DNA from: a virus
Lineage: Duplodnaviria > Heunggongvirae > Uroviricota > Caudoviricetes
Direction: 5' to 3' (one strand)
Length of the DNA: 42,122 bases
IMG/VR virus record: IMGVR_UViG_2778261299_000011
Below are positions 8,153 to 41,142 of the stretch, piece by piece. The position numbers were made by a program, and so were the translations under genes. The notes under the pieces are model-generated. The model worked only from the letters and a program-made list of their open reading frames with translations. It made no database searches and had not been told where the DNA came from. Numbering within the stretch: the stretch's first letter is position 1; each line of letters starts with the position of its first letter.

Positions 8153-8734
8153 ATGAACAACTCATGGTGGCAGGAACTAATGCATTTTTTCCTGCAAGGA
8201 ATGACACTTAAACAGTTGATTCATATGCTAATCATTCTGATCATATTGATTATTGTTATGCCGGTAAGCGTAAAAGAATGGATAAACCTGCATAATCCAG
8301 AAATCCTTCCTCATTACTGGATGTATTACATCCTGTTGTTTTGCGTTAGCTATGTGCTTAACGGCGTTGTTAATTCCGCTTATCACGCTGTGACTGAAAG
8401 AATTGAGGTATCCGCTGCTCAGAAGCGCAAATCTAAAGAAGAAAAATATGTGCAAGATTTGTTTGATTCATTAACTCTTGGAGAAAGAGCGTATTTGGCA
8501 TTCGCTGTAGCCGCTAATAACCAGCTACAAACGGAAAAGGGAGCTCATGAATCAATTTCATTGCTCAAAAAAGGACTCCTCGTTCGAAGGCCTCCTGCTG
8601 TTGGATATCCTGATACCGACCGTTTCGTTATCCCTGAAAGCTATAGACATGAGTGCTACATTAGGTTTGCCGGGAAGGCAGACAGCCTTATGGATGAACT
8701 TATCGCTCAGGATAAGCATGGCAAAAACAAGTAA
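8153..8734 (+). CDS. sieB: Superinfection exclusion protein B, 193 aa
   Basis: N-terminal TM segments (LIHMLIILIILIIVMPV, YWMYYILLFCVSYVL). Plus-strand orientation between ral and N and length match lambda/P22 SieB. Confidence 0.8.
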   Translation: MNNSWWQELMHFFLQGMTLKQLIHMLIILIILIIVMPVSVKEWINLHNPEILPHYWMYYILLFCVSYVLNGVVNSAYHAVTERIEVSAAQKRKSKEEKYVQDLFDSLTLGERAYLAFAVAANNQLQTEKGAHESISLLKKGLLVRRPPAVGYPDTDRFVIPESYRHECYIRFAGKADSLMDELIAQDKHGKNK

Positions 8735-9310: not shown

Positions 9311-9335
9311 AAGAAAAAAAGGGGCGAATGCCCCT
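9311..9335 (-). terminator. Terminator immediately after the repressor gene
   Basis: Minus strand reads AGGGGC-ATTC-GCCCCT followed by TTTTTTTCTTTCC. Confidence 0.55.
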
Positions 9336-9985
9336 TATGGAAGGTTTGCTATTTTTGCATCGACAACTACACCGATGATTTTGCAGTTCCCGTTGATCTC
9401 AATCATCGGATATTGTGGGTTAAGTGGTTTTAGAAACCTTCTACCAGCATCAATAACTAACTTCTTGAAAGTTGCCTCGTTTTCTCCTTCGAGCTTTGCC
9501 ACTACCAGCTTCCCATTACGAGGTTCTACTTCAGGATCAACAAGTATTATCATCCCTTCCGGGATGCTAAGACCGGCTGGAGCCGTCATCGAATCACCCT
9601 TTACGTCCAGCCAAAACGAATCTTCTGAACAATCTACGGTTGTATCGTACCAGTTATCTATTGCACGCTTATGATATGGCTCTACAGCTTCCATCCAACA
9701 TCCTGCGCTTACCCAACTAATTAGAGGATACGAACCTCTTGGATCATGCCTGCTGTGATAGGCAATGTTTGAAAGACTATCTTCTCCTTTCAACAAGTAA
9801 TCAGGGGAGCACTGTAAAGCCTTGGCTAAAGCCAATAGGTTTTCGCCATTGGGCTCAGTTTCAGAACGCTCCCATTGGGAAATAGCAACATTAGACACGC
9901 CAACCATCTTGCCAAGGGCAGCCTGCCTAATCTTAAGTTCTTTTCTGCGAGCGCGAATACGCTCACCCATCAGTTGTGTATTCAT
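9335..9985 (-). CDS. cI: Prophage repressor, P22 C2-type (HTH + S24 autopeptidase), 216 aa
   Basis: MNTQLMGERIRARRK.LKIRQAALGKMVGVSNVAISQWERSETEPNGENLLAL.KALQCSPDYLL... and GDSMTAPAGLSIPEGMIILVDPE...FKKL match my recollection of P22 C2 nearly throughout. Confidence 0.95.
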   Translation of the reverse strand: MNTQLMGERIRARRKELKIRQAALGKMVGVSNVAISQWERSETEPNGENLLALAKALQCSPDYLLKGEDSLSNIAYHSRHDPRGSYPLISWVSAGCWMEAVEPYHKRAIDNWYDTTVDCSEDSFWLDVKGDSMTAPAGLSIPEGMIILVDPEVEPRNGKLVVAKLEGENEATFKKLVIDAGRRFLKPLNPQYPMIEINGNCKIIGVVVDAKIANLP

Positions 9986-14545: not shown

Positions 14546-15213
14546 ATATCTACGAAAGAATTGATGGCAGCAAATACCGAAATATTTGGGTAGTTGGCGA
14601 TCTGCACGGATGCTACACGAACCTGATGAACAAACTGGATACGATTGGATTCGACAACAAAAAAGACCTGCTTATCTCGGTGGGCGATTTGGTTGATCGT
14701 GGTGCAGAGAACGTTGAATGCCTGGAATTAATCACATTCCCCTGGTTCAGAGCTGTACGTGGAAACCATGAGCAAATGATGATTGATGGCTTATCAGAGC
14801 GTGGAAACGTTAATCACTGGCTGCTTAATGGCGGTGGCTGGTTCTTTAATCTCGATTACGACAAAGAAATTCTGGCTAAAGCTCTTGCCCATAAAGCAGA
14901 AGAACTTCCGTTAATCATCGAACTGGTGAGCAAAGGTAAAAAATATGTCATCTGCCACGCCGATTATCCTTGTGACGAATACGAATTTGGAAAGCCAGTT
15001 GATCATCAGCAGGTAATCTGGAACCGCGAACGAATCAGCAACTCACAAGACGGGATCGTTAAAGAAATTAAAGGCGCGGACACGTTTATCTTTGGTCATA
15101 CGCCAGCAGTGAAACCACTCAAATTTGCCAACCAGATGTATATCGATACTGGGGCAGTGTTCTGCGGAAATCTCACATTGATTCAGGTACAGGGAGAAGG
15201 CGCGTGGGCATAA
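14542..15213 (+). CDS. ninI: Lambda-type Ser/Thr protein phosphatase (metallophosphoesterase), 223 aa
   Basis: [53 protein letters not shown]...[11 protein letters not shown] matches lambda PPase almost throughout. Confidence 0.9.
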
Positions 15214-15692
15214 GAGAACTAAACCTCACCAAAGAACAGCATGAGTGGCTGAATGGCTGGCTTGAACTGTGGGGCGCATGGGTTTATTCAGGTCGTCTGG
15301 AAAAGCGCATGAGCAGCGTAATAGCGAAGTTCATGGAGAGCGTAGAGCCGGGAAGAGTTATGACAAGGCCAATGTGTAATGATGATGATGGAATGTTGAT
15401 TTCTCAGGTCGTCGATTCCGTCATGTACATTGACAAGAAAGCCTTTGGAATCCTCCTCAGCTACTACGCTCATGGCTCTTCCAAGCACGCCATTGCATCT
15501 TACTATCATCGCGTCGCAAGACCTCGCAAGATGTTATGCCGTGGCGGCGGGCGCATTCAAAAACCATCGCTCGCAACCTGTCGACGGGAAGTTGACGAAA
15601 TCCTTAATGCCTCGTTGTTTATGATTTACCCGGTTCTGGATAGTGCGTTTAAAAATCGGAAACGTGTAGAGAAAATTAAACATGTAGCATAG
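15204..15692 (+). CDS. Q: Late-gene antiterminator Q family, 162 aa (GTG start)
   Basis: Last gene of the nin region and directly upstream of a TTGACA promoter and tR'-like terminator. The sequence resembles non-lambda Q alleles (phage 21-like size). The family call is by position plus recollection. Confidence 0.75.
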
Positions 15693-29040: not shown

Positions 29041-29493
29041 ATGGAATTCGAAATCAAAGGCGTGAAATATCGCGCGGCAAAACTCAGCGTTTTTGATCAG
29101 CTGAAAGTGATCCGCAAACTTCTGCCGGTGCTGGCAGGAATGATGTCAGATTTCGGGAGCATTCGCTCCCGTTTGCCTGCTGATGGCAAAATCGACACCG
29201 TGAAATTCGAGCAGTTAAAACCGGTGTTTGAAACCATGCTCCCGCGTATCGCTGAGGAACTGTCTTCCCTGACCGAAGATGACACCAGTGCGATTATTCA
29301 TCCCTGTCTTGCGGTGGTATCGCGGCGTCATATGGACGGATGGGTTCCGGTATTTACCCAGGGCGAACTGATGTTTGATGATATTGACTTGCTGGTCATG
29401 CTGCATCTGGTGGCGCGGGTGGTCGCCGATTCGCTGGGAAATTTTTTGCCTACACCCCTTACCAGCACGACGCAGAGCCTGCAACAGGGCTGA
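29041..29493 (+). CDS. Tail assembly chaperone (short form); -1 frameshift form would extend to 29681
   Basis: Located upstream of the tape measure gene. The slippery heptamer G GGA AAT lies at 29436-29442, with an open -1 frame to TGA at 29679-29681. Confidence 0.7.
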   Translation: MEFEIKGVKYRAAKLSVFDQLKVIRKLLPVLAGMMSDFGSIRSRLPADGKIDTVKFEQLKPVFETMLPRIAEELSSLTEDDTSAIIHPCLAVVSRRHMDGWVPVFTQGELMFDDIDLLVMLHLVARVVADSLGNFLPTPLTSTTQSLQQG

Positions 29494-29670
29494 CGTTTAA
29501 CAGCCTGCCGGACGGGCTGTCTTACCTTCTCAATCCGGTTGACGCTGGGTTAATTCCTTATACAGCACTTAAAGATGGCTCTGTCGATTTGTACGACATT
29601 GCTCTCTTGAATGACCATCTGGCGGTAAAAGCGGATAACCAGCGGCGCATTGAGAAATGGAGAGAGGATA

Positions 29671-31659
29671 ATGAACGCTGAAACTATTAAAGATTTCCTC
29701 GTCTCGCTTGGCTTCAGTGTGGATGATGCAGGAGCGAAAAAGTTCGGTTCTGTCCTCGCCGGTACAACTGCAAATGTCATCAAAATGGGACTGGCCGTTG
29801 AAGGAGCTGCGCTGTCCGTGGTGGCCTTCACGGCTAAGATCGCCTCCGGCCTGGATAATCTTTACTGGGCGTCACAGCGCACCGGCGCGACAGTCCAGGG
29901 AATTCAGTCTATTGGCTATGCGGTTTCGCAGGTTGGCGGCAGCGTGGACGCTGCGCGCGGGTCACTGGAGAGCCTTGCCCGTTTTATCCGTAATAACCCC
30001 GGGGCTGAGGGATTTCTGAATCGTCTGGGGGTACAGACACGGGATGCCAGCGGTAACATGCGTGACATGGCCGCTATTTTTACAGGTGTAGGACAGAAGC
30101 TCAGCGGCATGCCGTATTACCGGGCTAACCAGTATGCGCAGATGCTGGGCATTGACGAAAATACCCTTATGGCGATGCGCCGGGGTGTGGGTGGTTTCTC
30201 CGGGCAGTACAGCGCAATGGCGAAAGCTATCGGCTTCAATGCTGACGAGGCGGCCAGAAGCTCCAACAAATTTATGACCTCCCTGCGTGAGTTTAGCGCG
30301 ATGGCAGGCATGGCCCGTGACAAAATCGGCTCTAATCTTGCGGGTGGGCTTGCGGGTTCGCTGGACACCCTGCGCCGCCATATCCTGGACAACTTCCCTC
30401 GTATCGAGCAGACCCTGACGAAAGCCATAAAAGGCATTCTGGCGCTCGGGGATATTATCGGGCGGCTGTTCTTCAGACTGATTGAAGGAACATCAGGCCT
30501 CATCACCTGGTGGCAATCGCTGGATAAGCAAACGCGGGAGTTGATCTCGCTGTTTGGTGCACTGACGATTGCGCTGCGCATTCTGAACAGTACGTTCTGG
30601 ATGTCGCCGATTGGCCTCATTACCGCGCTGGCGGCGGGTATTGCCCTCCTGTGGGAGGACTATCAGACCTGGAAGGAAGGCGGCGACAGCCTGATTGACT
30701 GGGGCAAGTGGAAACCGGAGGTTGATGCCGCGCTGAAGATGGTTCGTGACCTTAAAACGACCGTTAACGACCTGGTGAAAGCGCTGGCGAAACTGCTCAA
30801 TATTGACCCCAAATCATGGTCCCTGAAGTGGGATTTCAGCAACTTCATCGACCAGATGGGCGAATTCAGCAAAATGCTGAACATGATCGCCGACCTGCTC
30901 AACGCTATCAAAGATGGCCGCTGGGCTGATGCCGTCAGCATCAGCAAACAGATACTTAATCAGGGCAGCGAAAATCCGTCAGCGATGCCGATGGTTACAG
31001 ACAGCGCTAACAGTACTGCCGACTGGATTAAAGAGCACTGGGGATTCGATCCCCGCAGTGTGGGCCGGACGGTACGCGGCTGGTTTGGTGATGATGAGCC
31101 GGAACAATATGCACAGGCTACGAAACGAGGAGAACGGAATAACAATCCGGGAAACCTTAATTTTGCTGGTCAGGCAGGGGCTTCTCTTGAACGCCCGGGC
31201 GGGCGATTTGCCAGATTTGAAACTGCTTTTGATGGATTACGGGCTCTTGCTCGTCAGTTAATGCTGTACGCCGGACGGGGAATAAACAGTGTGGAGAAAA
31301 TTATCTCTACCTGGGCACCTGCGTCTGATAATAACAACACAACTGCGTATATCAGGGCTGTATCGCAACGACTGGGAGTGGATCCCCGGGCTGCCCTGAA
31401 TATGAGCGATCCGCAAACCATGTCAGCATTGATGAGCAGCATTATCCAGCATGAAAATGGAAGAAATATCTATTCTCGAGAGCTGATTAATAAGGCTGCC
31501 GTGGCGGGAATTAGTGGCAAAATGACAGAGGTTAACCAGCAAAATACTTACCACATTTACGGTGGCGGAGATCCGCACGCTGTCGGTAATGAGGTTGCAC
31601 GTCGGCAACAGTCTGCAAATGCTCAGGTCATGCGAAGTAATCAGGTGAGGGTGGGTTAG
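29671..31659 (+). CDS. Tape measure protein, 662 aa
   Basis: ATG 29671 follows GGAGAGAGG. The product is long, Ala/Gly/Leu-rich and helical with central hydrophobic segments. The C-terminal ~170 aa (…ERNNNPGNLNF…IIQHENG…) looks like a separate globular domain. Confidence 0.85.
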   Translation: MNAETIKDFLVSLGFSVDDAGAKKFGSVLAGTTANVIKMGLAVEGAALSVVAFTAKIASGLDNLYWASQRTGATVQGIQSIGYAVSQVGGSVDAARGSLESLARFIRNNPGAEGFLNRLGVQTRDASGNMRDMAAIFTGVGQKLSGMPYYRANQYAQMLGIDENTLMAMRRGVGGFSGQYSAMAKAIGFNADEAARSSNKFMTSLREFSAMAGMARDKIGSNLAGGLAGSLDTLRRHILDNFPRIEQTLTKAIKGILALGDIIGRLFFRLIEGTSGLITWWQSLDKQTRELISLFGALTIALRILNSTFWMSPIGLITALAAGIALLWEDYQTWKEGGDSLIDWGKWKPEVDAALKMVRDLKTTVNDLVKALAKLLNIDPKSWSLKWDFSNFIDQMGEFSKMLNMIADLLNAIKDGRWADAVSISKQILNQGSENPSAMPMVTDSANSTADWIKEHWGFDPRSVGRTVRGWFGDDEPEQYAQATKRGERNNNPGNLNFAGQAGASLERPGGRFARFETAFDGLRALARQLMLYAGRGINSVEKIISTWAPASDNNNTTAYIRAVSQRLGVDPRAALNMSDPQTMSALMSSIIQHENGRNIYSRELINKAAVAGISGKMTEVNQQNTYHIYGGGDPHAVGNEVARRQQSANAQVMRSNQVRVG

Positions 31660-32246
31660 TGGATATTCTCTCTACACTTTTTCATCAGCAGAGCAGAAAA
31701 ATAGGAATGATTGTTCCCAGTGTTGTTATTTCAGAGAAGCATACAGATATGCTTGAAATAACAGAGCATCCGGTAGAGGTCGGGGCCGCTGTCGCTGATC
31801 ATGCCTATAAAAAACCGTCAGAAGTGGTGATGGAGGTTGGTTTCGCCGGTGGCGGCGCATTGCTGGCTTTTGCCAGTAATCTGACGGCTACCAGCCTGCT
31901 CGGCCTGAGTCCTCAGCAGACGTATCAGGAGCTACTGGATCTGCAGGAAAGCCGTATCCCCTTCGATGTGGTAACCGGTAAACGACTGTACAGCAACATG
32001 TTGATCCGGGCGCTGGAAGTGACGACGGACAAGACAACCGAAAACGTCCTGTCCGCCGTCCTCACCCTGAGGGAGGTCCTTATCTCCCGGACGCAGCAGA
32101 TTACCGTCGCGGATAAAACCAACATGAAGGAAGGGGCCAGCACGTCGGCGGTACAGAATAGCGGCAACAAAACCACAAAGCCTCCAGATACTTCACTGCT
32201 GAAAAGCATCACGGGTAACGTGGCGTCATTACTGGGAGGCGGCTAA
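31659..32246 (+). CDS. Tail/baseplate assembly protein, 195 aa (GTG start overlapping the TMP stop)
   Basis: Operon register only. No family recognised with confidence. Confidence 0.45.
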   Translation: MDILSTLFHQQSRKIGMIVPSVVISEKHTDMLEITEHPVEVGAAVADHAYKKPSEVVMEVGFAGGGALLAFASNLTATSLLGLSPQQTYQELLDLQESRIPFDVVTGKRLYSNMLIRALEVTTDKTTENVLSAVLTLREVLISRTQQITVADKTNMKEGASTSAVQNSGNKTTKPPDTSLLKSITGNVASLLGGG

Positions 32247-32548
32247 TGACAATTCAGGAAATTCCGCTGACAGCGGACAACCAGCAGTTCAGCATCGTCT
32301 TGGGTGGTGTCACTTGGCAGATTAGCATCATATGGCGCGATCCTTACTGGATTATGGACCTGCAGAACGACAGAGGGGAGCCGGTAATCTCCGGTATTCC
32401 TCTCGTCACTGGCGCTGATCTGCTGGCGCAGTACGCCTGTATGGGACTTGGTTTTAAGCTGGTGGTGGTCTGCGATGACAACACACAGGATTATCCCACG
32501 AAAACTGATCTGGGCGGCCTCAGTCATTTACTGGTATCAACGGAGTAA
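32246..32548 (+). CDS. Small tail/baseplate protein, 100 aa
   Basis: ATGA-type junction with the preceding gene. The call is positional. Confidence 0.45.
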   Translation: MTIQEIPLTADNQQFSIVLGGVTWQISIIWRDPYWIMDLQNDRGEPVISGIPLVTGADLLAQYACMGLGFKLVVVCDDNTQDYPTKTDLGGLSHLLVSTE

Positions 32549-32550
32549 GC

Positions 32551-33612
32551 ATGTCACAGAACTGGATGAGACATTTCGAGCTGCAGCTTGTGGACGGGAA
32601 CGGTCAGGGAATTGAGCTAAGTGATTTCAAAGTCACCTTTACGATCGACTGGTTCAACATCAGCAGCGCGTCCCGGGTAGGGACTATCAAAATTTATAAC
32701 CTCTCGGCAGATACTGTGAACCGAATCACCGGGCAGGAATTTTCGAAAGTGCGTCTGATTGCCGGTTACGACGGTGTCGCGCCAGAGGTGTCAGCAAGCG
32801 ACGTAGGGACCGTGCGGGAAGTTGACGCGGCGGACGTGGGCCAGAGAGATGGCCGCAACTACGGACTGATTTTCAGCGGTGAAATTCGCTACTCGGTCAC
32901 AGGAAAAGACAGTCCGGTTGATACCTACGTCCTGATTCAGGCAGCAGATACTGATCTGGCTTTTGCCACCAGTATAACCTCACAGACGCTGGCTGCCGGT
33001 TACACGGTCGCTGATGTGAACCGTGCGCTGATGAAAGACTTCGAAGCCAAAGGCGCGACCGAAGGCCTGACGCCTGAAATGCCTGCTACTGTATTCCCCC
33101 GGGGGCGGGTACTCTTTGGCATGACGCGGCATCTTATGGATAACGTAGCCGGTCAATGTGGCGCAACATGGCAATTCGTGGACGGTCAACGCCAGATGGT
33201 GGAGAATAACGAATATGTTCATGAAGCGATTGTGCTCAACAGCGCTACCGGGCTTATTGGCATGCCGCAGCAGACTATCGGTAACGGCGTAAACGTCCGC
33301 GCGCTTATTAATCCGAACATCCGGGTTAACGGACTCATTCAGCTGGATCAGGCTTCCGTGTATCGTACCGCCTTGTCGAACAACGATATTGCGATGGCTG
33401 GTGGTCAGATCACCGACCAGAACACGGATGGAAATATCACGCTAAGCGGCACCACATCGCAGCCTGCCAGCATCGCAACGGATGGCGTTTATATTGTGCG
33501 CGGGATTATGTACACTGGCGATACAAGGGGCCTGGCGTGGTACATGGATATGATGTGCGAAGCGCGTGGCGCGGCGGATCTCCGCACTCAGGACTCGCTT
33601 AACCGGGGGTAA
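32551..33612 (+). CDS. Baseplate hub-like late tail protein, 353 aa
   Basis: Position between the tape measure block and the spike gene. Size is typical of Mu gp44/P2 gpD-type proteins, but the family was not verified. Confidence 0.5.
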   Translation: MSQNWMRHFELQLVDGNGQGIELSDFKVTFTIDWFNISSASRVGTIKIYNLSADTVNRITGQEFSKVRLIAGYDGVAPEVSASDVGTVREVDAADVGQRDGRNYGLIFSGEIRYSVTGKDSPVDTYVLIQAADTDLAFATSITSQTLAAGYTVADVNRALMKDFEAKGATEGLTPEMPATVFPRGRVLFGMTRHLMDNVAGQCGATWQFVDGQRQMVENNEYVHEAIVLNSATGLIGMPQQTIGNGVNVRALINPNIRVNGLIQLDQASVYRTALSNNDIAMAGGQITDQNTDGNITLSGTTSQPASIATDGVYIVRGIMYTGDTRGLAWYMDMMCEARGAADLRTQDSLNRG

Positions 33613-33614
33613 AT

Positions 33615-33956
33615 GTGAAAGCCTTAGCCATTTTAATTGTTGCCTTTATGTCATTTGGGGCATCTGCAAGCGGTTACACCGCTTATTGTGGACCTTACAC
33701 CATCACTGCAAGGTTGGGGGAAATGGACATGATTAACGGTGAACGCGTCACATCTCAGAAAATTACAAATCTTGGTGCTGATGGCATTAAGATTGATATG
33801 GGGCTAATGCCTGCCAAAGACGGCAACAACTACGGCTTTGAATACATTCGTCGTCCGGGTACCGAAACGCGCTTCCTGAACGTCCAACTGCTGCAGAACA
33901 GCATGGATGCGCCGAAAATCATCGGCTCTTTCCCGTGTAAAAAGGTTTCTGGTTAA
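33615..33956 (+). CDS. Small secreted protein (signal peptide), 113 aa, GTG start; moron
   Basis: MKALAILIVAFMSFGASASG is a signal peptide. GGGGG lies 5 nt upstream of the GTG. It is not a recognisable virion component. Confidence 0.55.
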   Translation: MKALAILIVAFMSFGASASGYTAYCGPYTITARLGEMDMINGERVTSQKITNLGADGIKIDMGLMPAKDGNNYGFEYIRRPGTETRFLNVQLLQNSMDAPKIIGSFPCKKVSG

Positions 33957-34022
33957 CCAAAAGTTACATTTCTGCATAGTGTTGAGTTTGTTCACATTCA
34001 CTAAATAATGATTTTTTATCGC

Positions 34023-34111
34023 TTGCTAGGTGGTTGCATGATCACTAAACTTTGCGAACTTTTAGCGCTCAGCTAACTTTGAATAAGTGGTGTATAGTCG
34101 TTTAAAACGAC
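34023..34111 (+). promoter_or_regulatory. Candidate moron promoter and palindromic operator
   Basis: TTGCTA, 17 nt, then TAAACT (34023-34051). A perfect palindrome GTCGTTT-A-AAACGAC lies at 34097-34111, just upstream of the SD AGAGGG. Confidence 0.4.
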
Positions 34112-34124
34112 AGAGGGATTGGGT

Positions 34125-34697
34125 ATGGCGATTAGCTACGCATTTGCGCTGGCAACAATTACACAACAAATGAATCAGGTTCAGGAAGCTGTTAACGGTG
34201 CTTTCAAACCCCTGATCTCTAATGCTTGTGAACTGCCACAACGATTAGATGCTGAAGAGGCATTTCGTCGTTGTACCGCGATTGCTGCACGCGCTCAAGA
34301 AATCGAAAATACCGCGAAGGAAGGCATGTCTCATCTCGAAGCTTTTCGAAATGGAAGAATCATTGTTGATGAGCTTCCGGAAGGGTTTTTATCCCATCTC
34401 GAAGGTCTTGCCAAGGCATGCCGAAATGCTAAAGGACATTTAGTGGATATGTTCTCTGAAGCGGAAAGGTCCCCTATGTGGCAAGGCCATCTGCAAATGT
34501 TGCGCCCATTAAAACGCAAATATGTTCGTGCGTTGACCGCCGTCGAGAACACTGCAACTCAGTTGGCCGCTGAAGTTAGGCAATCGCAGCCTTTCCAGGC
34601 TGAACTCTTGTCAGATAATGTTACCCGTGAAGAGGCGATTGAACTGATCTCAACATCGCATAAGATGCTGGGAGCCGACGCCCCTAAATGGATGTGA
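34125..34697 (+). CDS. Unknown 190-aa helical protein, putative partner/antitoxin of the downstream YafO-like protein
   Basis: ATG 34125 follows AGAGGGATTGGGT (the track start TTG 34119 is also possible). The stop lies 1 nt before the next ATG. No motif recognised. Confidence 0.6.
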   Translation: MAISYAFALATITQQMNQVQEAVNGAFKPLISNACELPQRLDAEEAFRRCTAIAARAQEIENTAKEGMSHLEAFRNGRIIVDELPEGFLSHLEGLAKACRNAKGHLVDMFSEAERSPMWQGHLQMLRPLKRKYVRALTAVENTATQLAAEVRQSQPFQAELLSDNVTREEAIELISTSHKMLGADAPKWM

Positions 34698-34698
34698 C

Positions 34699-35115
34699 AT
34701 GGCAAAAGTCAGTATCACGGGAGAATTGCGTCATTTAGCTGCAGCACATAAGTATGCTCAAATGCTTGCCGATTATATTTCAAAGGGTTCCCAGTTCTGG
34801 TGTTTTGGTTCGTTAGGCGGTTTTGAACGTAACTATGATGCGATGGCTGCCAACATCAGGAAAATTCACTTAAAGCTACCTGGCGATAAACCCTGGCCTC
34901 CAGAAGCATCTCTGAGTGAACGGACATGTGATAATTTTTTGGTATATGCTCAGCATCTTTATATCGATGAACACTATCAGATATTGGCAATCATCAGCCC
35001 AAACGCTCATCAGCAAGCTGATTCGATGCTTCCCCGGCTGATAAAATTAGCAGAGGAAACCTTCATAGAACTTCCTCCTGATGAACTCGAAAAATTGAAA
35101 ACCTACGATTCATAA
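34699..35115 (+). CDS. YafO-family toxin-like protein (ribosome-dependent mRNA interferase family), 138 aa
   Basis: Ordered motifs shared with E. coli YafO as I recall it: IRKIHL/VAHIHL, PWPP/PFPP, SERTCDNFLVYAQ/SRTNDEAHLVYCQ, QILAIISPNAH/WLLIAILKPEPH and LAEETF/MAEAF. Confidence 0.65.
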   Translation: MAKVSITGELRHLAAAHKYAQMLADYISKGSQFWCFGSLGGFERNYDAMAANIRKIHLKLPGDKPWPPEASLSERTCDNFLVYAQHLYIDEHYQILAIISPNAHQQADSMLPRLIKLAEETFIELPPDELEKLKTYDS

Positions 35116-35140
35116 ACCCGCCACCCGGCGGGTTTTTTGC
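35115..35140 (+). terminator. Strong rho-independent terminator closing the moron
   Basis: AACCCGCC-ACCC-GGCGGGTT followed by TTTTTTGC, overlapping the stop codon. Confidence 0.85.
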
Positions 35141-35157
35141 TTTCTGGAGCCTACTAA

Positions 35158-35913
35158 ATGGCAGTATCTGACCAGACCCGCAGCGGCGACCTTGCTGAAA
35201 CATTCAAATCTGAACGGGAAACAACAAAGAACCAGATCCGAGTCGCTTTGCCTGGCATCGTCCAGTCATTCGATCCTGACGCTGTGACGGCGGTTGTGCA
35301 GCCTTCTATCCGTTCGGTTGAAACGGATAACGACGGCAATCGCGTTACCAAAAATTACCCGCTGCTGGTGGATGTGCCAGTGGTATTCCCGCGCGGCGGA
35401 GGATGCACGCTAACGTTCCCGGTTAAAGCCGGTGATGAATGTTTGGTGATTTTTGCCGATCGTTGTATTGATTTCTGGTGGCAGAACGGCGGAATACAGG
35501 AGCCTGTTGATGACAGAATGCATGATTTATCGGATGCGTTTTGTATTGTAGGTCCCCAGTCGCAGGCGCAGAAAATCAGCGGAATCAGCACCAGCGCCGC
35601 GCAACTGCGTACTGATGATGGCGCTGCGTTTGTGGAAGTGGCCGCAGGCCATAACATCACGGTTCAAACCCCCGGCGCGCTGACGGCGACAGCAGAAGGA
35701 GGAACCACGATCACATCACCCACCATCACGCTAAACGGCAACGTGACAATAAACGGGAATCTTTCTCAGGGGATGGGCGAAAGCGGCGGCACCGCGACGA
35801 TGCTTGGCCCTGTCACGGTGACTAACGATGTAAAAGCTGGTGGTAAGAGCCTGATGACGCACACGCACGGCGGAGTACAGACCGGCGGCGGTAACACAGG
35901 AGCGCCTAACTGA
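35158..35913 (+). CDS. Baseplate central spike (Mu gp45 / gpV-type), 251 aa
   Basis: An OB-fold-like N-domain (…VALPGIVQSFDPD…VQP…), a beta-helical repeat region (ITSPTITLNGNVTINGNL) and the tip motif MTHTHGG (HxH metal site). Confidence 0.8.
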   Translation: MAVSDQTRSGDLAETFKSERETTKNQIRVALPGIVQSFDPDAVTAVVQPSIRSVETDNDGNRVTKNYPLLVDVPVVFPRGGGCTLTFPVKAGDECLVIFADRCIDFWWQNGGIQEPVDDRMHDLSDAFCIVGPQSQAQKISGISTSAAQLRTDDGAAFVEVAAGHNITVQTPGALTATAEGGTTITSPTITLNGNVTINGNLSQGMGESGGTATMLGPVTVTNDVKAGGKSLMTHTHGGVQTGGGNTGAPN

Positions 35914-37465: not shown

Positions 37466-38142
37466 GCAAATACACCGAACTAATCACGAACTACCACGCC
37501 ACCAAACCTAAATTTCTTGCGCATGTTGATCTGATGACCCGGCCGCTTATTGATGTTGCGGCTGCCACCAGAGGGCTGATTACTGCATTTGATATTGACT
37601 CTGCGGTTGGTGTGCAACTTGACATTCTGGGATTGTGGATCGGACGTAGCCGTGTTGTCAGCCAGCCTATCTCAGGTGTCTATTTCAGCTGGGATACCGA
37701 CGGGCTTGGATATGATCAGGGGGTATGGCAGGGGCCATATGATCCTGATTCTGGATACATGTATCTCAGCGATGAAACTTATCGTGTCATTCTTAAAGCG
37801 AAGATTGCGATTAATAACTGGGACGGACGGAATGATTCGCTTCCGGCAATTCTTGACGCGGCAACAGCAGGATCCGGGCTGCGAATGCAGATTGTCGATA
37901 ACCAGGACATGACGATATCGGTCTGGGTCTTTCCTGATACTGATATTTCAGATGTATCGCGTGAGTTAATTGCTGCAATTAAACAGGGATATCTCACAGT
38001 AAAAGCCGCCGGGGTGTGGGCGGGTGGCATTGAAACACCTTCGGTGGAAACCCCATCGGAAGGTTCAAAATTTTTTGGTTTTGATATGGATAACGAATTC
38101 ATCAGTGGTTTTGATGTAGGGGCATGGGGAGTATTACTCTGA
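37462..38142 (+). CDS. Baseplate/tail-fibre adaptor protein (DUF2612-like, from memory), 226 aa
   Basis: Lies between the J-like and tail-fibre genes, with overlapping junctions. Confidence 0.55.
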
Positions 38143-38960
38143 TGGCAAAAAATGACTTTAAAGCATTCGCAACGGGTAAAAATGCCAATGTTATGTCGCA
38201 GGAGGAATGGGAAGCGTTGCCTGCGCTTTTATCCGGATTTACAGCAGGGAAAGCATCCAGTGCGCAAGTCAATAAGGTTATTCGGCAGGCCAGCTTTATT
38301 GCTGCAGCTCTGGCCCAGTTTGTAAGTGACAAAACGCAACGGGATGTGCTTGATAATGGTGATCTGCCCGGTTTTGTTGAATTGCTGGGATCGGGGTTTG
38401 CTGTTGAATACCTGAGCCGCAAGAATCCGTTTGGTGATATCAAATCGGATGGCACGGTGAAAACGGCTCTCGAAAACCTTGGTTTGGGAGAAGGCTCAGC
38501 ATTACCTGTTGGGGTGCCTGTTCCGTGGCCTTCAGCCACTCCGCCAACAGGCTGGTTGAAATGCAATGGTGCGGCTTTTTCTGCTGAAGAATATCCCAAA
38601 CTGGCAAAGGTTTATCCGACAAATAAATTGCCTGATTTACGTGGTGAGTTTATTCGTGGCTGGGATGATGGGCGTGGTATTGATGCTGGGCGTGCTTTAT
38701 TGAGCCTTCAGGCTGGAATGCTGGAAAAACACCGCCATATGGTTGTAGCCAACGATGGGTATGATTCAAAAGAGGAATGGGAACTGGCGGCAATCTTCAG
38801 AAAAGCATATACGCAAGGCCGGGGGCTTGATGCTGCCGATGCCGGAGGGACTCTGATTCCATCACCAACGCTACATACACGAGGGAGTATTGGTAACACA
38901 GGTGGGAGAGAAACCCGTCCACGAAATATTGCATTTAACTATATCGTGAGAGCTGCGTAA
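38142..38960 (+). CDS. Tail fibre protein (constant N-part + currently expressed variable C-part with phage tail-collar domain), 272 aa
   Basis: ATG 38142 (ATGA overlap) gives [33 protein letters not shown]. The collar-domain motif is [38 protein letters not shown]...[19 protein letters not shown]. The invertase crossover site lies inside the gene at 38467-38492. Confidence 0.85.
38467..38492 (+). repeat. Left 26-bp invertase crossover site (pix/gix-like)
   Basis: CTCTCGAAAACCTTGGTTTGGGAGAA. Its reverse complement TTCTCCCAAACCAAGGTTTTCGAGAG shares its first 14 nt with the right site. Confidence 0.75.
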
Positions 38961-39562
38961 TGGATAAAGCCGTATTAAATAGCGAACTTATTGCCACGAA
39001 GGCGGGGAATATTACCGTCTATAACTATGATGGTGAAACACGGGAATATATTTCTGAATCAACTGAATATCTTGCTGTTGGCGTCGGTATTCCCGCACAT
39101 TCGTGTTTAGATGCTCCTGGTTCATATAAGTCAGGTTATGTGTCCTGTCGAACTCTGGATTTGAGATCATGGGAATATGTGCCAGACCATCGCGGTGAAA
39201 TCGTCTATAACACCGAAACGGGGGACTCAAAAGAAATCACAGTGCCGGGAGATTACCCTGAAAAGACAACCACTATTGCTCCGTTAACACCATACGATAA
39301 GTGGGATGGTGAGAAATGGGTGACGGATACCAAAGCGCAACATAACGCAGCAGTGGAAGGGGCTGAACTGCAACGCCAGTCACTGATTGATGATGCCATG
39401 TCTTCCATTGTTCTGATTCAACTAAAATTGCAGGCCGGGCGGAAGCTGACGCAGGCAGAAACCACCCGACTTAACGCTGTGCTGGATTACATTGACGCGG
39501 TGACGGCAACAGATTCCAGCACCGCGCCGGATGTCATCTGGCCTGAACTGCCGGAGGCGTAG
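38960..39562 (+). CDS. Tail fibre assembly protein (Tfa/U), 200 aa
   Basis: ATGA-type overlap with the fibre gene. The C-terminal ...LNAVLDYIDAVTATDSSTAPDVIWPELPEA is the Tfa hallmark. Confidence 0.85.
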   Translation: MDKAVLNSELIATKAGNITVYNYDGETREYISESTEYLAVGVGIPAHSCLDAPGSYKSGYVSCRTLDLRSWEYVPDHRGEIVYNTETGDSKEITVPGDYPEKTTTIAPLTPYDKWDGEKWVTDTKAQHNAAVEGAELQRQSLIDDAMSSIVLIQLKLQAGRKLTQAETTRLNAVLDYIDAVTATDSSTAPDVIWPELPEA

Positions 39563-39977
39563 GCCATTCAATATCTGGCGCACTGGAGGTATCAACCAGT
39601 TCCAGTGCGTCCAGATAATCCAGCCACAAATTATATTGCGCCAGTTCGTCACCTTTCAGACGACCAATAGCGGCTTTACCGGGCCATTGCTTACTGTTCA
39701 TGTATTCGTTGGCCTGGTTAATTAGTAGCTGTCTTTCTGATTCAGTAATTTCAATAAGCTCTTCATGAGTAGGTGGAGGAATATCTGCCCACGCAGGCAG
39801 CCCATCATCTCCGGCAATACGGATTTTTCCTTGTGGCGGTTCAGCCATAAACTCACTGATAATATTTTGATTTACTTCCTTAGCGTCTGATAAATCCCAT
39901 CCCTCTGATTTATATTTATCAATCATATCCACAGGAAAAAAAGCATTATGCCTTGCGCTATAAACATATTCGTTCAT
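39534..39977 (-). CDS. Alternative tail fibre assembly protein (U'), 147 aa
   Basis: ATG 39977 follows AGGGTG. The C-terminal ...YNLWLDYLDALELVDTSSAPDIEWPTPP is the Tfa hallmark. Convergent with U. Confidence 0.8.
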   Translation of the reverse strand: MNEYVYSARHNAFFPVDMIDKYKSEGWDLSDAKEVNQNIISEFMAEPPQGKIRIAGDDGLPAWADIPPPTHEELIEITESERQLLINQANEYMNSKQWPGKAAIGRLKGDELAQYNLWLDYLDALELVDTSSAPDIEWPTPPAVQAR

Positions 39978-39997
39978 ATAAATCACCCTGAATAAAA

Positions 39998-40369
39998 TTA
40001 CTCACCAACAGCCCACCAACTGTAATTCATCGATACCGTGTCGCTGGTTGATGACGTTCTGTAAGCAGAATTAAAGCCGGTTAACGTTGGGCCTTCTGCA
40101 GTCATCACGAACCCTCGCCCAGCGCCTAAAGGCGCACCGCCATCACCAGAATGAGTAAGCATGGCGCAGTCCGCTTTTTTGGGGAAAGGGATGCTGAATG
40201 TAATTCTCATTGTTTGCGTCGATAATGTCGGCGTAACCGCACCACGACCATATTGCAGGATTTTCCCGTTGGGTAATTTCATCCATCCATCACCACTGGC
40301 AAAAGAGGCCATGTCCGGTATCTGATTTCCCCCTGTCCCCACATCCCGTTTTGCCGCTTCTCCCAAACC
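39998..40369 (-). CDS. Alternative tail-fibre C-terminal segment (Sv'), silent in this orientation
   Basis: An open frame with no start of its own begins within the right crossover site (…NVGLGEAAKRDVGTGGNQIPDMASF…WWAVGE). Inversion would fuse it to fibre codons 1-~115. Confidence 0.75.
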   Translation of the reverse strand, partial: GLGEAAKRDVGTGGNQIPDMASFASGDGWMKLPNGKILQYGRGAVTPTLSTQTMRITFSIPFPKKADCAMLTHSGDGGAPLGAGRGFVMTAEGPTLTGFNSAYRTSSTSDTVSMNYSWWAVGE

Positions 40370-40383
40370 AACGTTTATGAAAA
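40358..40383 (+). repeat. Right 26-bp invertase crossover site
   Basis: TTCTCCCAAACCAACGTTTATGAAAA, in inverted orientation relative to 38467-38492, with a 12-bp identical core GGTTTGGGAGAA. Confidence 0.75.
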
Positions 40384-40437
40384 TGCAGAAATAATGAGCA
40401 AATGGCATCATTCCTGCTTTTGTCAGGGGGATCTACC

Positions 40438-40546
40438 ATGCTTATTGGCTATGTACGCGTGTCAACAAATGACCAGAACACAGATCTACAACGTAATGCA
40501 CTGAACTGTGCAGGATGCGAGCTGATTTTTGAAGACAAGATAAGTA
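40438..40546 (+). pseudogene. pin: Truncated Din-family serine invertase (pin), first 36 codons only
   Basis: MLIGYVRVSTNDQNTDLQRNALNCAGCELIFEDKIS is identical, as I recall, to the e14 Pin N-terminus. Homology and GC content then break. The catalytic Ser is present, but about 150 residues, including the HTH, are missing. Confidence 0.85.
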
Positions 40547-40608
40547 GTGCTATGGGGGTTAGGCATTATAATTGGTTGTTAAAAATCAATAAGTTTTGTA
40601 TTGTTGTG

Positions 40609-41142
40609 ATGATATTACCATCATGTTACAAGGTGTGGATTTTGGCGAAGTTACTATATGTAAAACCTATAACGATAAAAAAAGCAAATGAATTTGTTTC
40701 TATTTATCATCGACACCATCGACCAACGTCAAGGAATTCGGGCAGATGGGCTATAGCTGCCTACCACATAGATTCTGATGAATTGGTTGGTGTAGCGATA
40801 GTTGGAAATCCCGTATCTGCAACGTACATGGATGGTGTGACGGCAGAGATTACACGATTATGTGTCAGTGACAAATCTCCAAAAGGAACTTGCTCCTTTC
40901 TGATTAGTCGATGTAGCACAATCTGGAAAATGATGGGAGGAGAAAAAATTATTACCTATACTCTAAGCAGTGAAACAGGCGCATCTTTAAAAGGTGCTGG
41001 GTGGCAGTTAGTTGGGACTGTACATCCTCATAATCGTTGGGCCGATAAAGCAAAGCAGGATGGAATAATTAGGGATAATTTAGAAATATATAAACTGAAG
41101 AAATTTCGTTGGGAATGTTTACTCGGGGAGGTTCTAATATGA
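40609..41142 (+). CDS. GNAT-fold-like small protein (XF1762/Mom-type pattern), about 166-177 aa; start uncertain (ATG 40609, or TTG 40642 with AAGGTG SD)
   Basis: KPITIKKANEFVSIYHRHHRP, VGVAIVGNPVS, EITRLCVSD, CSFLISRC and IITYTLSSETGASLKGAGWQ match the pattern of a small phage/prophage acyltransferase-fold family from memory. The gene is AT-rich. Confidence 0.6.
   Translation: MILPSCYKVWILAKLLYVKPITIKKANEFVSIYHRHHRPTSRNSGRWAIAAYHIDSDELVGVAIVGNPVSATYMDGVTAEITRLCVSDKSPKGTCSFLISRCSTIWKMMGGEKIITYTLSSETGASLKGAGWQLVGTVHPHNRWADKAKQDGIIRDNLEIYKLKKFRWECLLGEVLI

What the first reader, a model, noticed from the sequence alone, without database searches (positions are those of the whole stretch)
33957..35145. 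Self-contained promoter-operator-two-gene-terminator moron inside the baseplate operon: a YafO-like toxin with a non-canonical 190-aa partner
Seen: tail genes are packed with overlaps or gaps of a few nt from 29041 to 33612 and again from 35158 onward. Between them lies a 168-nt non-coding gap, the longest in the late operon. It holds a candidate promoter (TTGCTA-17-TAAACT, 34023-34051) and a perfect palindrome GTCGTTT-A-AAACGAC (34097-34111) next to the SD. Two ORFs then follow, 1 nt apart (TGAcATG), and a textbook terminator (35115-35140). The 138-aa product shows the ordered YafO-family motifs: IRKIHL, PWPP, SERTCDNFLVYAQ, QILAIISPNAH and LAEETF. The upstream 190-aa protein looks all-helical and contains nothing I recognise. 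Established: YafO is a ribosome-dependent mRNA interferase, and its cognate antitoxin YafN is a ~95-aa Phd/YefM protein encoded upstream. Morons with their own promoter and terminator are expressed from the lysogen. Inference: this is a lysogen-expressed toxin-antitoxin-like or abortive-infection module. Its neutralising or sensing partner is twice the usual size and unrelated to YafN, and may be autoregulated through the palindrome. Placing it in a tail operon also forces late transcripts to read through a strong terminator, which requires Q-modified RNA polymerase.
Basis: partly seen in the sequence, partly recalled or inferred. Interest (0 to 1): 0.8.

Follow-up and report, generated by a model that had tools for sequence, protein, structure and literature searches.

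The report
Prophage cargo: YafO-type toxin, new partner
A lambdoid E. coli prophage carries, in a swap-in slot of its tail genes, a two-gene cassette that pairs a YafO-family RNA-cutting toxin with an uncharacterised 190-aa helical protein that always accompanies it; this is probably a toxin-antitoxin or anti-phage module with a new kind of antitoxin, but nothing has been tested experimentally.

Summary
It comprises a 168-nt gap, gene A (34125-34697, 190 aa), gene B (34699-35115, 138 aa) 1 nt downstream, and the strongest + strand terminator of the tail region.

B belongs to Pfam YafO_toxin (62.6 bits, cutoff 25). Its model (pLDDT 94.9) matches only RelE/HigB/YafQ-fold toxins.

A has no Pfam, NCBIfam, PADLOC, PDB or BFVD relative. 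It models as a plain five-helix bundle. Its family is tiny: 14 representatives among 1.84 billion proteins.

Every A homologue I located on DNA, down to about 21% identity, lies directly upstream of a YafO-family gene or its remnant. The pair appears in at least seven genomic contexts, six of them prophage slots, including just after cI.

In E. coli this slot is variable: 36 of 318 genomes carry A-B, and the others carry unrelated cargo. So it is a moron, not a structural component.

Two corrections. The terminator belongs to the slot backbone, because it is shared by every cargo type. The "operator" palindrome is perfect only in this lineage; elsewhere it keeps T·G pairs on the + strand, which favours an mRNA hairpin.

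Verdict: a probable toxin-antitoxin-type, lysogen-expressed module with a new antitoxin family. It is a new variant of a known kind. Function is untested.

The parts
33615..33956 (+). 113-aa signal-peptide protein. It is the left neighbour of the cargo slot and is not part of the A-B cassette.
   Evidence: ORF list. Matches phrog_3443 at E 2.4e-46 with unknown function, and has no Pfam hit. Present upstream of different cargos in SEN34, YP3 and E. coli prophages. Replaced in L122 and L004.
33957..34124 (+). 168-nt non-coding region holding the cassette's promoter-like site and 5' leader.
   Evidence: The last ~80 nt are conserved at the nucleotide level with cassettes in unrelated phage contexts.
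34023..34051 (+). Promoter-like site TTGCTA-17-TAAACT. The predicted transcript start is about 34057-34059.
   Evidence: Sequence. It matches 8/12 consensus positions, below the scan threshold. Equivalent TTGAAG/TTGAAA-17-TACACT sites sit at the same position in diverged cassettes. The function is inferred.
34062..34076 (+). Leader hairpin H1: TTAGC-GCTCA-GCTAA.
   Evidence: The core 5 bp pair in 16 of 16 distinct leaders. Changes on both sides occur (TTAGC/GCTAA to CTAGC/GCTAG and to TTATC/GATAA). The Pantoea and Serratia lineages have a different hairpin at the same place.
34097..34111 (+).
   Evidence: 91.7% of cells are paired. One stem position is U·G in 10/16 and U-A in 6/16. A second is U·G in 4/16. 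Predicted in the minimum-energy fold of most leaders.
34113..34118 (+). Shine-Dalgarno GAGGGA for gene A.
   Evidence: Sequence. Conserved as AGAGGG/AAGGGG in homologous leaders.
34125..34697 (+). Gene A: a 190-aa all-helical protein of an unnamed family, the putative antitoxin or partner.
   Evidence: Matches phrog_35514 (unknown function) at E 7.6e-93. No Pfam, NCBIfam or PADLOC hit. AF2 model has pLDDT 77.5 and five helices. Only generic helical-bundle matches were found. There are 36 clusters at 90% identity and 14 representatives in 1.84e9 proteins.
34699..35115 (+). Gene B: a 138-aa YafO-family (RelE/BECR-fold) putative mRNA endoribonuclease toxin.
35114..35141 (+). Intrinsic terminator (AAACCCGCC-ACCC-GGCGGGTTT plus T-run). 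It is the right border of the cargo slot.
   Evidence: Best + strand terminator in 28-40 kb: 9 pairs, 6 of them G-C. Conserved behind unrelated cargos in SEN34, vB_EcoM-606R2 and E. coli prophages.
15204..15692 (+). Context: Q-family antiterminator gene of the same prophage.
   Evidence: Pfam Phage_antitermQ at 87.4 bits. That it allows read-through of the terminator at 35114-35141 is inferred from lambda Q biology.

Best explanation
The region is a moron: an optional two-gene cassette sitting in a variable cargo slot between the baseplate-hub genes and the spike gene of a lambdoid prophage with a SEN34-like myovirus tail.

Gene B encodes a YafO-family, RelE-fold endoribonuclease toxin. Gene A encodes its dedicated partner, a five-helix protein of a new, very small family. 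A most likely binds and neutralises B, as a type II-style antitoxin does.

The pair is probably transcribed in the lysogen from its own weak sigma-70 promoter. The product would be a ~1.1-kb bicistronic mRNA with a ~65-nt leader bearing two conserved hairpins. A and B are translationally coupled (UGAcAUG), and transcription stops at the slot terminator, so the tail genes stay silent.

When A is lost or outcompeted, for example after transcription shut-off by an infecting phage, free B would cut mRNA and arrest translation. That would give abortive infection or exclusion that protects the lysogen population. During the prophage's own lytic growth, Q-modified polymerase reads through the terminator.

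Shown here: family and fold of B, novelty of A, strict A-B linkage, mobility of the pair, variability of the slot, leader conservation, and presence of Q.

Inferred: neutralisation by A, expression in the lysogen, the trigger, and the defence role.
For: B:
- Pfam YafO_toxin at 62.6 bits against a cutoff of 25.
- BLASTP to K-12 YafO gives E 5e-7 with shared H57/R75/T76/H104/E119.
- The YafO family is classed as a BECR-fold mRNase with antitoxin-toxin gene order (PMC11980606).

Linkage:
- All 55 A loci scored have B downstream with exactly 1 nt between stop and start.
- The Serratia lineage (A ~36%, B ~49% identity) has the same arrangement.
- A remote lineage has B at 39% identity. Its partner's homology to A is shown by hhalign at 97.7% probability, E 1.6e-12. 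Those genes overlap by 1 nt or are spaced by 2 nt.
- A diverges faster than B in 20 of 22 diverged pairs, as antitoxins usually do.
- One E. coli genome keeps A intact with B frameshifted.
- No hidden canonical antitoxin ORF was found.

Mobility and moron status:
- About eight flank clusters were found among the first 53 loci. The contexts identified by gene content are the baseplate hub/spike slot, the tail-chaperone/TMP slot, after the TMP, the nin region, a second baseplate-J slot, directly after three different cI-type repressors on the same strand, and one non-phage island.
- 36 of 318 E. coli genomes with the slot carry A-B, and the others carry unrelated cargo.
- There is a GC dip over the cassette.
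- The promoter-like site and leader travel with the genes.
- The terminator is strong.
- Q is present in the window.
Against: - There is no experiment of any kind. Toxicity of B, rescue by A, complex formation and transcription in the lysogen are all untested.
- A has no recognisable DNA-binding or known antitoxin fold, and it is twice the usual antitoxin size.
- Neither protein matches any PADLOC defence model.
- The promoter is only 8/12 to consensus.
- The leader fold is not more stable than shuffled sequence, z 0.52.
- One Logan contig has A frameshifted by a 1-nt deletion with B intact. If that is real and not an assembly error, it argues against A being essential for neutralisation.
- In the Pantoea and Serratia lineages the second leader hairpin is followed by a T-run, like an attenuator. 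This complicates simple constitutive expression.
Confidence: 0.6

Rival explanations
1. This would be a classical autoregulated type II TA. A (or the A-B complex) would bind the DNA palindrome at 34097-34111, and perhaps the one at 34062-34076, as an operator and repress the cassette promoter.
For: Two inverted repeats lie between the promoter-like site and the SD, and both are conserved as inverted repeats across lineages. Changes on both sides in H1 fit a DNA palindrome as well as an RNA stem. The N-terminal 50 residues of A are its most conserved part and could be an unrecognised DNA-binding element.
Confidence: 0.15
2. This would be a prophage-maintenance (addiction) or stress-response TA with no role against other phages. 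A would be unstable and B stable, and cells that lose or silence the prophage would be arrested.
For: The A-B anatomy is the same as for any type II TA. YafO itself was described as a stress-linked chromosomal toxin (papers cited in PMC11980606). There is no match to known defence systems.
Against: The pair sits at classical lysogenic-conversion and exclusion positions (after cI as rexAB does, in the nin region, in tail-operon moron slots) in many unrelated prophages. Integrated prophages gain little from post-segregational killing. Neither point is decisive.
Confidence: 0.15
3. This would be a lytic-cycle tool rather than a lysogen function. B would degrade host mRNA late in infection, with A timing or restraining it, and both would be expressed mainly from the Q-dependent late transcript.
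For: The cassette is co-directional with the late operon in every phage context. The promoter is weak. A leader terminator-like hairpin in the Pantoea and Serratia lineages would make expression depend on antitermination.
Against: A late-expressed translation toxin would harm virion production. The pair also sits next to cI and in the early nin region. A promoter-like site and a terminator bracket it, as for lysogen-expressed morons. It is dispensable in most relatives.
Confidence: 0.07

Closest known systems
E. coli K-12 YafN-YafO type II toxin-antitoxin system (dinB-yafNOP operon)
   Same: The toxin belongs to the same Pfam family, PF13957, with 25% identity and shared H57/R75/T76/H104/E119. 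The gene order is partner first, toxin second, with near-abutting genes. K-12 has 2 nt between yafN and yafO.
   Different: The partner is 190 aa and all-helical, with no similarity to the 97-aa YafN. B scores only 31.4 bits against the 153-bit cutoff of the NCBIfam YafO equivalog model. The pair is prophage cargo with its own promoter-like site and leader, not part of a chromosomal SOS operon.
RelE/HigB/YafQ ribosome-dependent mRNA interferases (BECR-fold RelE/ParE superfamily)
   Different: There is no sequence-level hit to any solved structure. B carries extra helices (138 aa against ~90-110). The partners of those toxins are RHH-, HTH- or Phd-type DNA-binding antitoxins, which A is not.
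Phage morons and lysogen-expressed exclusion genes (lambda rexAB after cI; HK97/lambda-type tail-operon morons; P2 cargo hotspots)
   Same: The cassette is optional between genes that are adjacent or hold different cargo in relatives. It has a promoter-like site upstream, a terminator downstream and lower GC. A remote A-B lineage occupies the position directly after cI on the same strand.
   Different: There is no sequence relation to RexA/RexB or to any PADLOC defence model. Here the terminator is a fixed feature of the slot shared by all cargos rather than brought in by each moron.
Catalogued but uncharacterised YafO_toxin partners in E. coli pangenome surveys
   Same: A survey of E. coli TA loci reports 6 YafO_toxin clusters with 13 partner clusters, of which only 8% are known antitoxins (PMC10790755). 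PGAP already names B 'YafO family toxin' and A 'hypothetical protein'. PHROGs holds both as families of unknown function.
   Different: I did not find this pair described, named or tested in the papers searched. The strict A-YafO linkage across contexts and the conserved leader were worked out here.

Membership tests
YafO toxin family (Pfam PF13957) | Score above the Pfam gathering threshold over most of the domain. | tested here: met
   62.6 bits against a cutoff of 25, covering residues 35-120 and profile positions 12-98 of 101. The remote pair members also pass, at 59.8 and 69.1 bits.
YafO toxin family (Pfam PF13957) | Equivalence to E. coli K-12 YafO (NCBIfam equivalog PRK09885). | tested here: not met
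   31.4 bits against a cutoff of 153, and 25% identity to K-12 YafO. B is a family member but not an ortholog-level equivalent.
YafO toxin family (Pfam PF13957) | RelE/BECR fold with conserved His/Arg residues. | tested here: met
YafO toxin family (Pfam PF13957) | mRNA cleavage and growth arrest on expression. | not testable with these tools
   This needs expression and primer-extension or RNA-seq assays.
YafN-YafO type system (Phd/YefM-type antitoxin partner) | The upstream partner is a YafN/Phd/YefM-family antitoxin of about 95 aa. | tested here: not met
   A compared with YafN gives no significant alignment. A has no Pfam or NCBIfam family. No small ORF in the cassette has an antitoxin domain.
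Type II toxin-antitoxin system (generic) | Two small co-directional genes that are tightly spaced or overlapping and conserved as a pair. | tested here: met
   A 1-nt spacer in 55 of 55 loci. A 1-nt overlap or 2-nt spacer in remote lineages. The pair is conserved in at least seven genomic contexts.
Type II toxin-antitoxin system (generic) | The antitoxin carries a DNA-binding domain and autoregulates through an operator. | tested here: inconclusive
   No DNA-binding fold was recognised in A. The inverted repeats behave more like RNA stems, with U·G on the + strand. Binding itself is untested.
Type II toxin-antitoxin system (generic) | Direct protein-protein neutralisation of the toxin by the antitoxin. 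| not testable with these tools
   No multimer prediction or experiment was available. The only indirect support is the faster divergence of A and a genome with B frameshifted but A intact.
Phage moron | Present in some phages and absent in close relatives at the same position. | tested here: met
   36 of 318 E. coli genomes with the slot carry A-B. The others carry DUF4282, DUF2335, HMG-box or other cargo. SEN34, YP3 and 606R2 carry different cargo.
Phage moron | Own promoter upstream and terminator downstream, with atypical composition. | tested here: inconclusive
   A strong terminator and a GC dip are present. The promoter is only 8/12 to consensus, though its position is conserved. The terminator is shared by all cargos of the slot. 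Transcription has not been measured.
Known anti-phage defence systems (PADLOC-DB v2) | Match of either protein to a defence-system model. | tested here: not met
   No hit at E <= 1 for A or B, nor for the remote pair.

The most novel reading that the evidence does not exclude
A-B would be a previously unrecognised prophage-borne abortive-infection system. In it the five-helix protein A is not just an antidote but the sensor. It would hold the YafO-type RNase inactive until a component of an invading phage (or the collapse of host transcription) releases it. The conserved two-hairpin mRNA leader would provide RNA-level control of the pair, which in some lineages would take the form of an attenuator.
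Probability: 0.25. Interest if true: 0.65.

Novelty: new variant of a known kind. Interest (0 to 1): 0.45.

Why it matters
YafO is one of the least understood RelE-type toxins. It has no solved structure, and only the YafN partner has been studied.

This work shows that a whole branch of the family is wedded to a different, uncharacterised helical partner. That branch moves between classical lysogenic-conversion slots of enterobacterial prophages.

The result gives a concrete, small and cloneable candidate for a new antitoxin fold. It may also be a new prophage defence module, found in about 0.7% of complete E. coli genomes.

It also documents a tail-operon cargo hotspot with a fixed terminator. 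That hotspot could be mined for further accessory genes.

This is a candidate rather than a discovery. TA-like morons in prophages are common, so the surprise to a specialist is moderate.

Tried and rejected
- Structural role for A/B: rejected. The slot is variable and the pair occurs outside tail operons.
- Known defence system: no PADLOC hit.
- Known RNA family in the leader or terminator: the only Rfam match is a sub-threshold chance hit on the terminator.
- Hidden canonical antitoxin in small or antisense ORFs: none.
- SEN34_21 (138 aa, same slot, same length as B) as a B homologue: rejected. It is an unrelated membrane-anchored protein.
- Terminator as part of the cassette: rejected for this slot, because all cargos share it. 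A related terminator followed by GCTTTCT does follow A-B in other contexts. The direction of that relationship is unresolved.
- Thermodynamic support for the leader structure: not significant, z 0.52. The RNA reading rests on pair patterns only.
- The genome-contig scan returned just 3 loci.
- Literature searches for this pair found only catalogue-level mentions.
- A-B co-folding could not be run with the tools.
Full report
**What is there**

- The 113-aa ORF ends at 33956, and 168 non-coding bases follow.
- Gene A starts at the ATG at 34125, 6 nt after GAGGGA, and ends with TGA at 34697.
- Gene B starts at 34699 and ends at 35115.
- An intrinsic terminator follows directly. Its stem spans 35114-35135, with 9 pairs of which 6 are G-C, plus a T-run. 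It is the top + strand terminator in 28-40 kb.
- TTGCTA-17-TAAACT is at 34023-34051. It matches only 8 of 12 consensus positions, so the scan did not list it.
- GC falls to 0.43-0.48 over 33600-35200, against 0.52-0.57 in the flanking tail genes.

The window is a complete lambdoid prophage. It encodes:
- a lambda-type integrase (1-1074, - strand);
- RecT;
- SieB (8153-8734);
- a cI-type repressor (9335-9985, - strand);
- O, P and NinG;
- a Q-family antiterminator (15204-15692);
- a holin;
- a SEN34-like (Brunovirus) head and contractile-tail module.

**Gene B**

- B passes the Pfam YafO_toxin model at 62.6 bits against a cutoff of 25.
- It aligns to E. coli K-12 YafO at 25% identity, E 5e-7.
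- H57, P65, R75, T76, P101, H104 and E119 are invariant across the B lineage and YafO.
- It fails the ortholog-level NCBIfam model, at 31.4 bits against 153.
- This agrees with the published placement of YafO in the BECR-fold RelE/ParE superfamily (PMC11980606).
- PGAP already names the protein 'YafO family toxin' in E. coli genomes.

**Gene A**

- A has no Pfam, NCBIfam or PADLOC match.
- It has no significant PDB sequence match and no similarity to YafN.
- PHROGs holds it as family 35514 of unknown function.
- The family is very small. There are 36 clusters at 90% identity among 5.8 billion sequences. A full HMM search of 1.84 billion representatives gave only 14 hits.
- No DNA-binding fold is recognisable.
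- Conserved features include C35, C50, W119 in an E-x-S-x-x-W motif, and a C-terminal S-H-x-x-L ... W189. These persist in the remote homologues.

**Linkage of A and B**

This is the strongest result.
- In 55 loci, B follows A with exactly one base between stop and start.
- The same holds in a Serratia lineage, where A is ~36% and B ~49% identical to the window.
- A still more remote lineage has B at 39% identity and a 194-aa partner. That partner is homologous to A by profile-profile comparison, at 97.7% probability and E 1.6e-12. Its genes overlap by 1 nt.
- The two weakest hits of the HMM search (E ~1e-4) also sit directly upstream of PF13957 genes.
- A diverges faster than B in 20 of 22 diverged pairs.

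Three decayed copies were found.
- One E. coli genome has B frameshifted with A intact.
- One Salmonella locus has remnants of both genes.
- One Logan contig has a 1-nt deletion in A with B intact. This may be an assembly error.

**Mobility**

The pair occurs in the following contexts:
- the baseplate hub/spike slot (this window and 27 other loci, with A identity from 62 to 100%);
- between the tail chaperone and tape-measure genes of siphovirus-type prophages of Pantoea and Serratia;
- after the tape-measure gene of Flyfo siphovirus Tbat2_3;
- in the nin region of a Klebsiella lambdoid prophage;
- in a second baseplate-J-adjacent slot;
- directly downstream of, and co-directional with, three different cI-type repressors, which is the place rexAB occupies in lambda;
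- once in a non-phage island.

**The slot**

In complete E. coli genomes, 318 of 5426 match some part of the query region and 36 carry A-B. The other occupants hold a DUF4282 protein, a DUF2335 protein, an HMG-box protein, an unrelated 243+142-aa pair, or other unknown genes. SEN34, Yersinia phage YP3 and vB_EcoM-606R2 carry yet other cargo.

All of these cargos except that of YP3 are followed by the same terminator and the same GCTTTCTGGAGCCTAC before the spike gene. Only the terminator loop varies. The terminator is thus a backbone feature of the slot. It presumably insulates the downstream tail genes from cargo transcription in the lysogen. Late transcription must pass through it, which is plausible for Q-modified polymerase (established for lambda Q) since a Q gene is present.

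**The leader**

About 80 nt upstream of A travel with the genes into unrelated contexts. A -35/-10 pair with 17-nt spacing recurs at the same position, as TTGCTA/TAAACT here and TTGAAG or TTGAAA/TACACT elsewhere.

Two hairpins follow.

H1 (34062-34076) pairs in 16 of 16 distinct leaders. It changes on both sides in several lineages. The Pantoea and Serratia lineages have a different hairpin at the same place.

- In the set of distinct leaders, one stem position is T·G in 10 of 16 and another in 4 of 16.
- The T·G is always oriented to give U·G on the mRNA strand.
- The + strand folds better than the - strand in all 18 leaders examined.

Together with the lack of a DNA-binding fold in A, this favours an mRNA hairpin abutting the SD over a DNA operator.

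The evidence here is modest.
- The sequences are few and related.
- The fold is no more stable than shuffled sequence, z 0.52.
- The leader is G+U-rich.

In Pantoea and Serratia the second hairpin is followed by a T-run and looks like an attenuator. I cannot explain this.

**Mechanism and comparison with known systems**

The best-supported reading is a toxin-antitoxin-type pair. B is a YafO-type mRNA endonuclease and A is its dedicated neutralising partner. They would be expressed from the prophage in the lysogen, with a probable role in excluding or aborting other phages.

This works like YafNO and other RelE-type type II systems. It is not a member of the YafN-YafO type, because the partner test fails. 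It is in no defence catalogue I could search.

A survey of E. coli TA loci had already noted that most YafO_toxin partners are unknown (PMC10790755). The existence of non-canonical partners is therefore not new. The specific family, its strict linkage, its mobility among prophage slots and its leader were established here. I found no paper describing the pair.

**Verdict**

Function is untested. The finding is a new variant of a known kind and is of moderate interest.

Noticed in passing
window 38124-41142: This is a Mu G-segment-like invertible tail-fibre region. A fibre gene (38124-38960) and an assembly gene (38960-39562) lie on the + strand. A second assembly gene (39534-39986) and an alternative gp53-like fibre C-terminus (39998-40411) lie on the - strand. 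The block is inverted relative to the E. coli EC17CM13 prophage. The adjacent ORF 40402-41142 has only the first ~36 residues of a resolvase/invertase, then runs into a weak Mom-like segment. The invertase may therefore be disrupted and the switch locked.
   Followed up: partly
window 33615-33956: A 113-aa protein with an N-terminal signal peptide (phrog_3443, no Pfam) sits between the baseplate hub gene and the cargo slot. It shares the low GC of the cassette. It is conserved upstream of different cargos, but is replaced by an HMG-box protein or a 111-aa protein in some relatives. SEN34 annotates it from an internal ATG as 78 aa.
   Followed up: partly
L003 3097-3222 and 4026-4148 (Yersinia phage YP3): In YP3 the cargo gene in the same slot is flanked by a direct repeat of about 120 nt. 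The repeat includes the ribosome-binding region, and there is no GC-rich terminator. This suggests a different way of acquiring cargo, by duplication or recombination.
   Followed up: no
L059-L061 (about 70 nt upstream of gene A), L005 and L053 (5913-6003): In the Serratia and Pantoea versions of the cassette, the second leader hairpin is a GC-rich stem followed by 5-7 T's just before the SD. It therefore looks like an intrinsic terminator or attenuator inside the 5' leader.
   Followed up: partly
L121 about 2170-2200; L123 about 2130-2160; window 34046-34056: Unrelated cargos of the slot share a -10-like TA(A/C)ACT followed by (C/T)TGC with the A-B leader, for example GGTAAACTCTGCG and TTACACTGCAC. 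This hints at a common promoter/start module among these morons.
   Followed up: no
window 8153-8734: A SieB (superinfection exclusion B) homologue, Pfam 79.5 bits, lies in the immunity region near the cI-type repressor gene at 9335-9985 on the - strand. It is a second likely lysogen-expressed exclusion function in the same prophage.
   Followed up: no
L123 2208-3367 (E. coli OkiPb01696): Another two-gene cargo (243 aa + 142 aa, abutting) occupies the same slot. The second protein gives only a faint HEPN_IX PADLOC hit, E 0.0094. It is possibly another toxin-type pair.
   Followed up: partly
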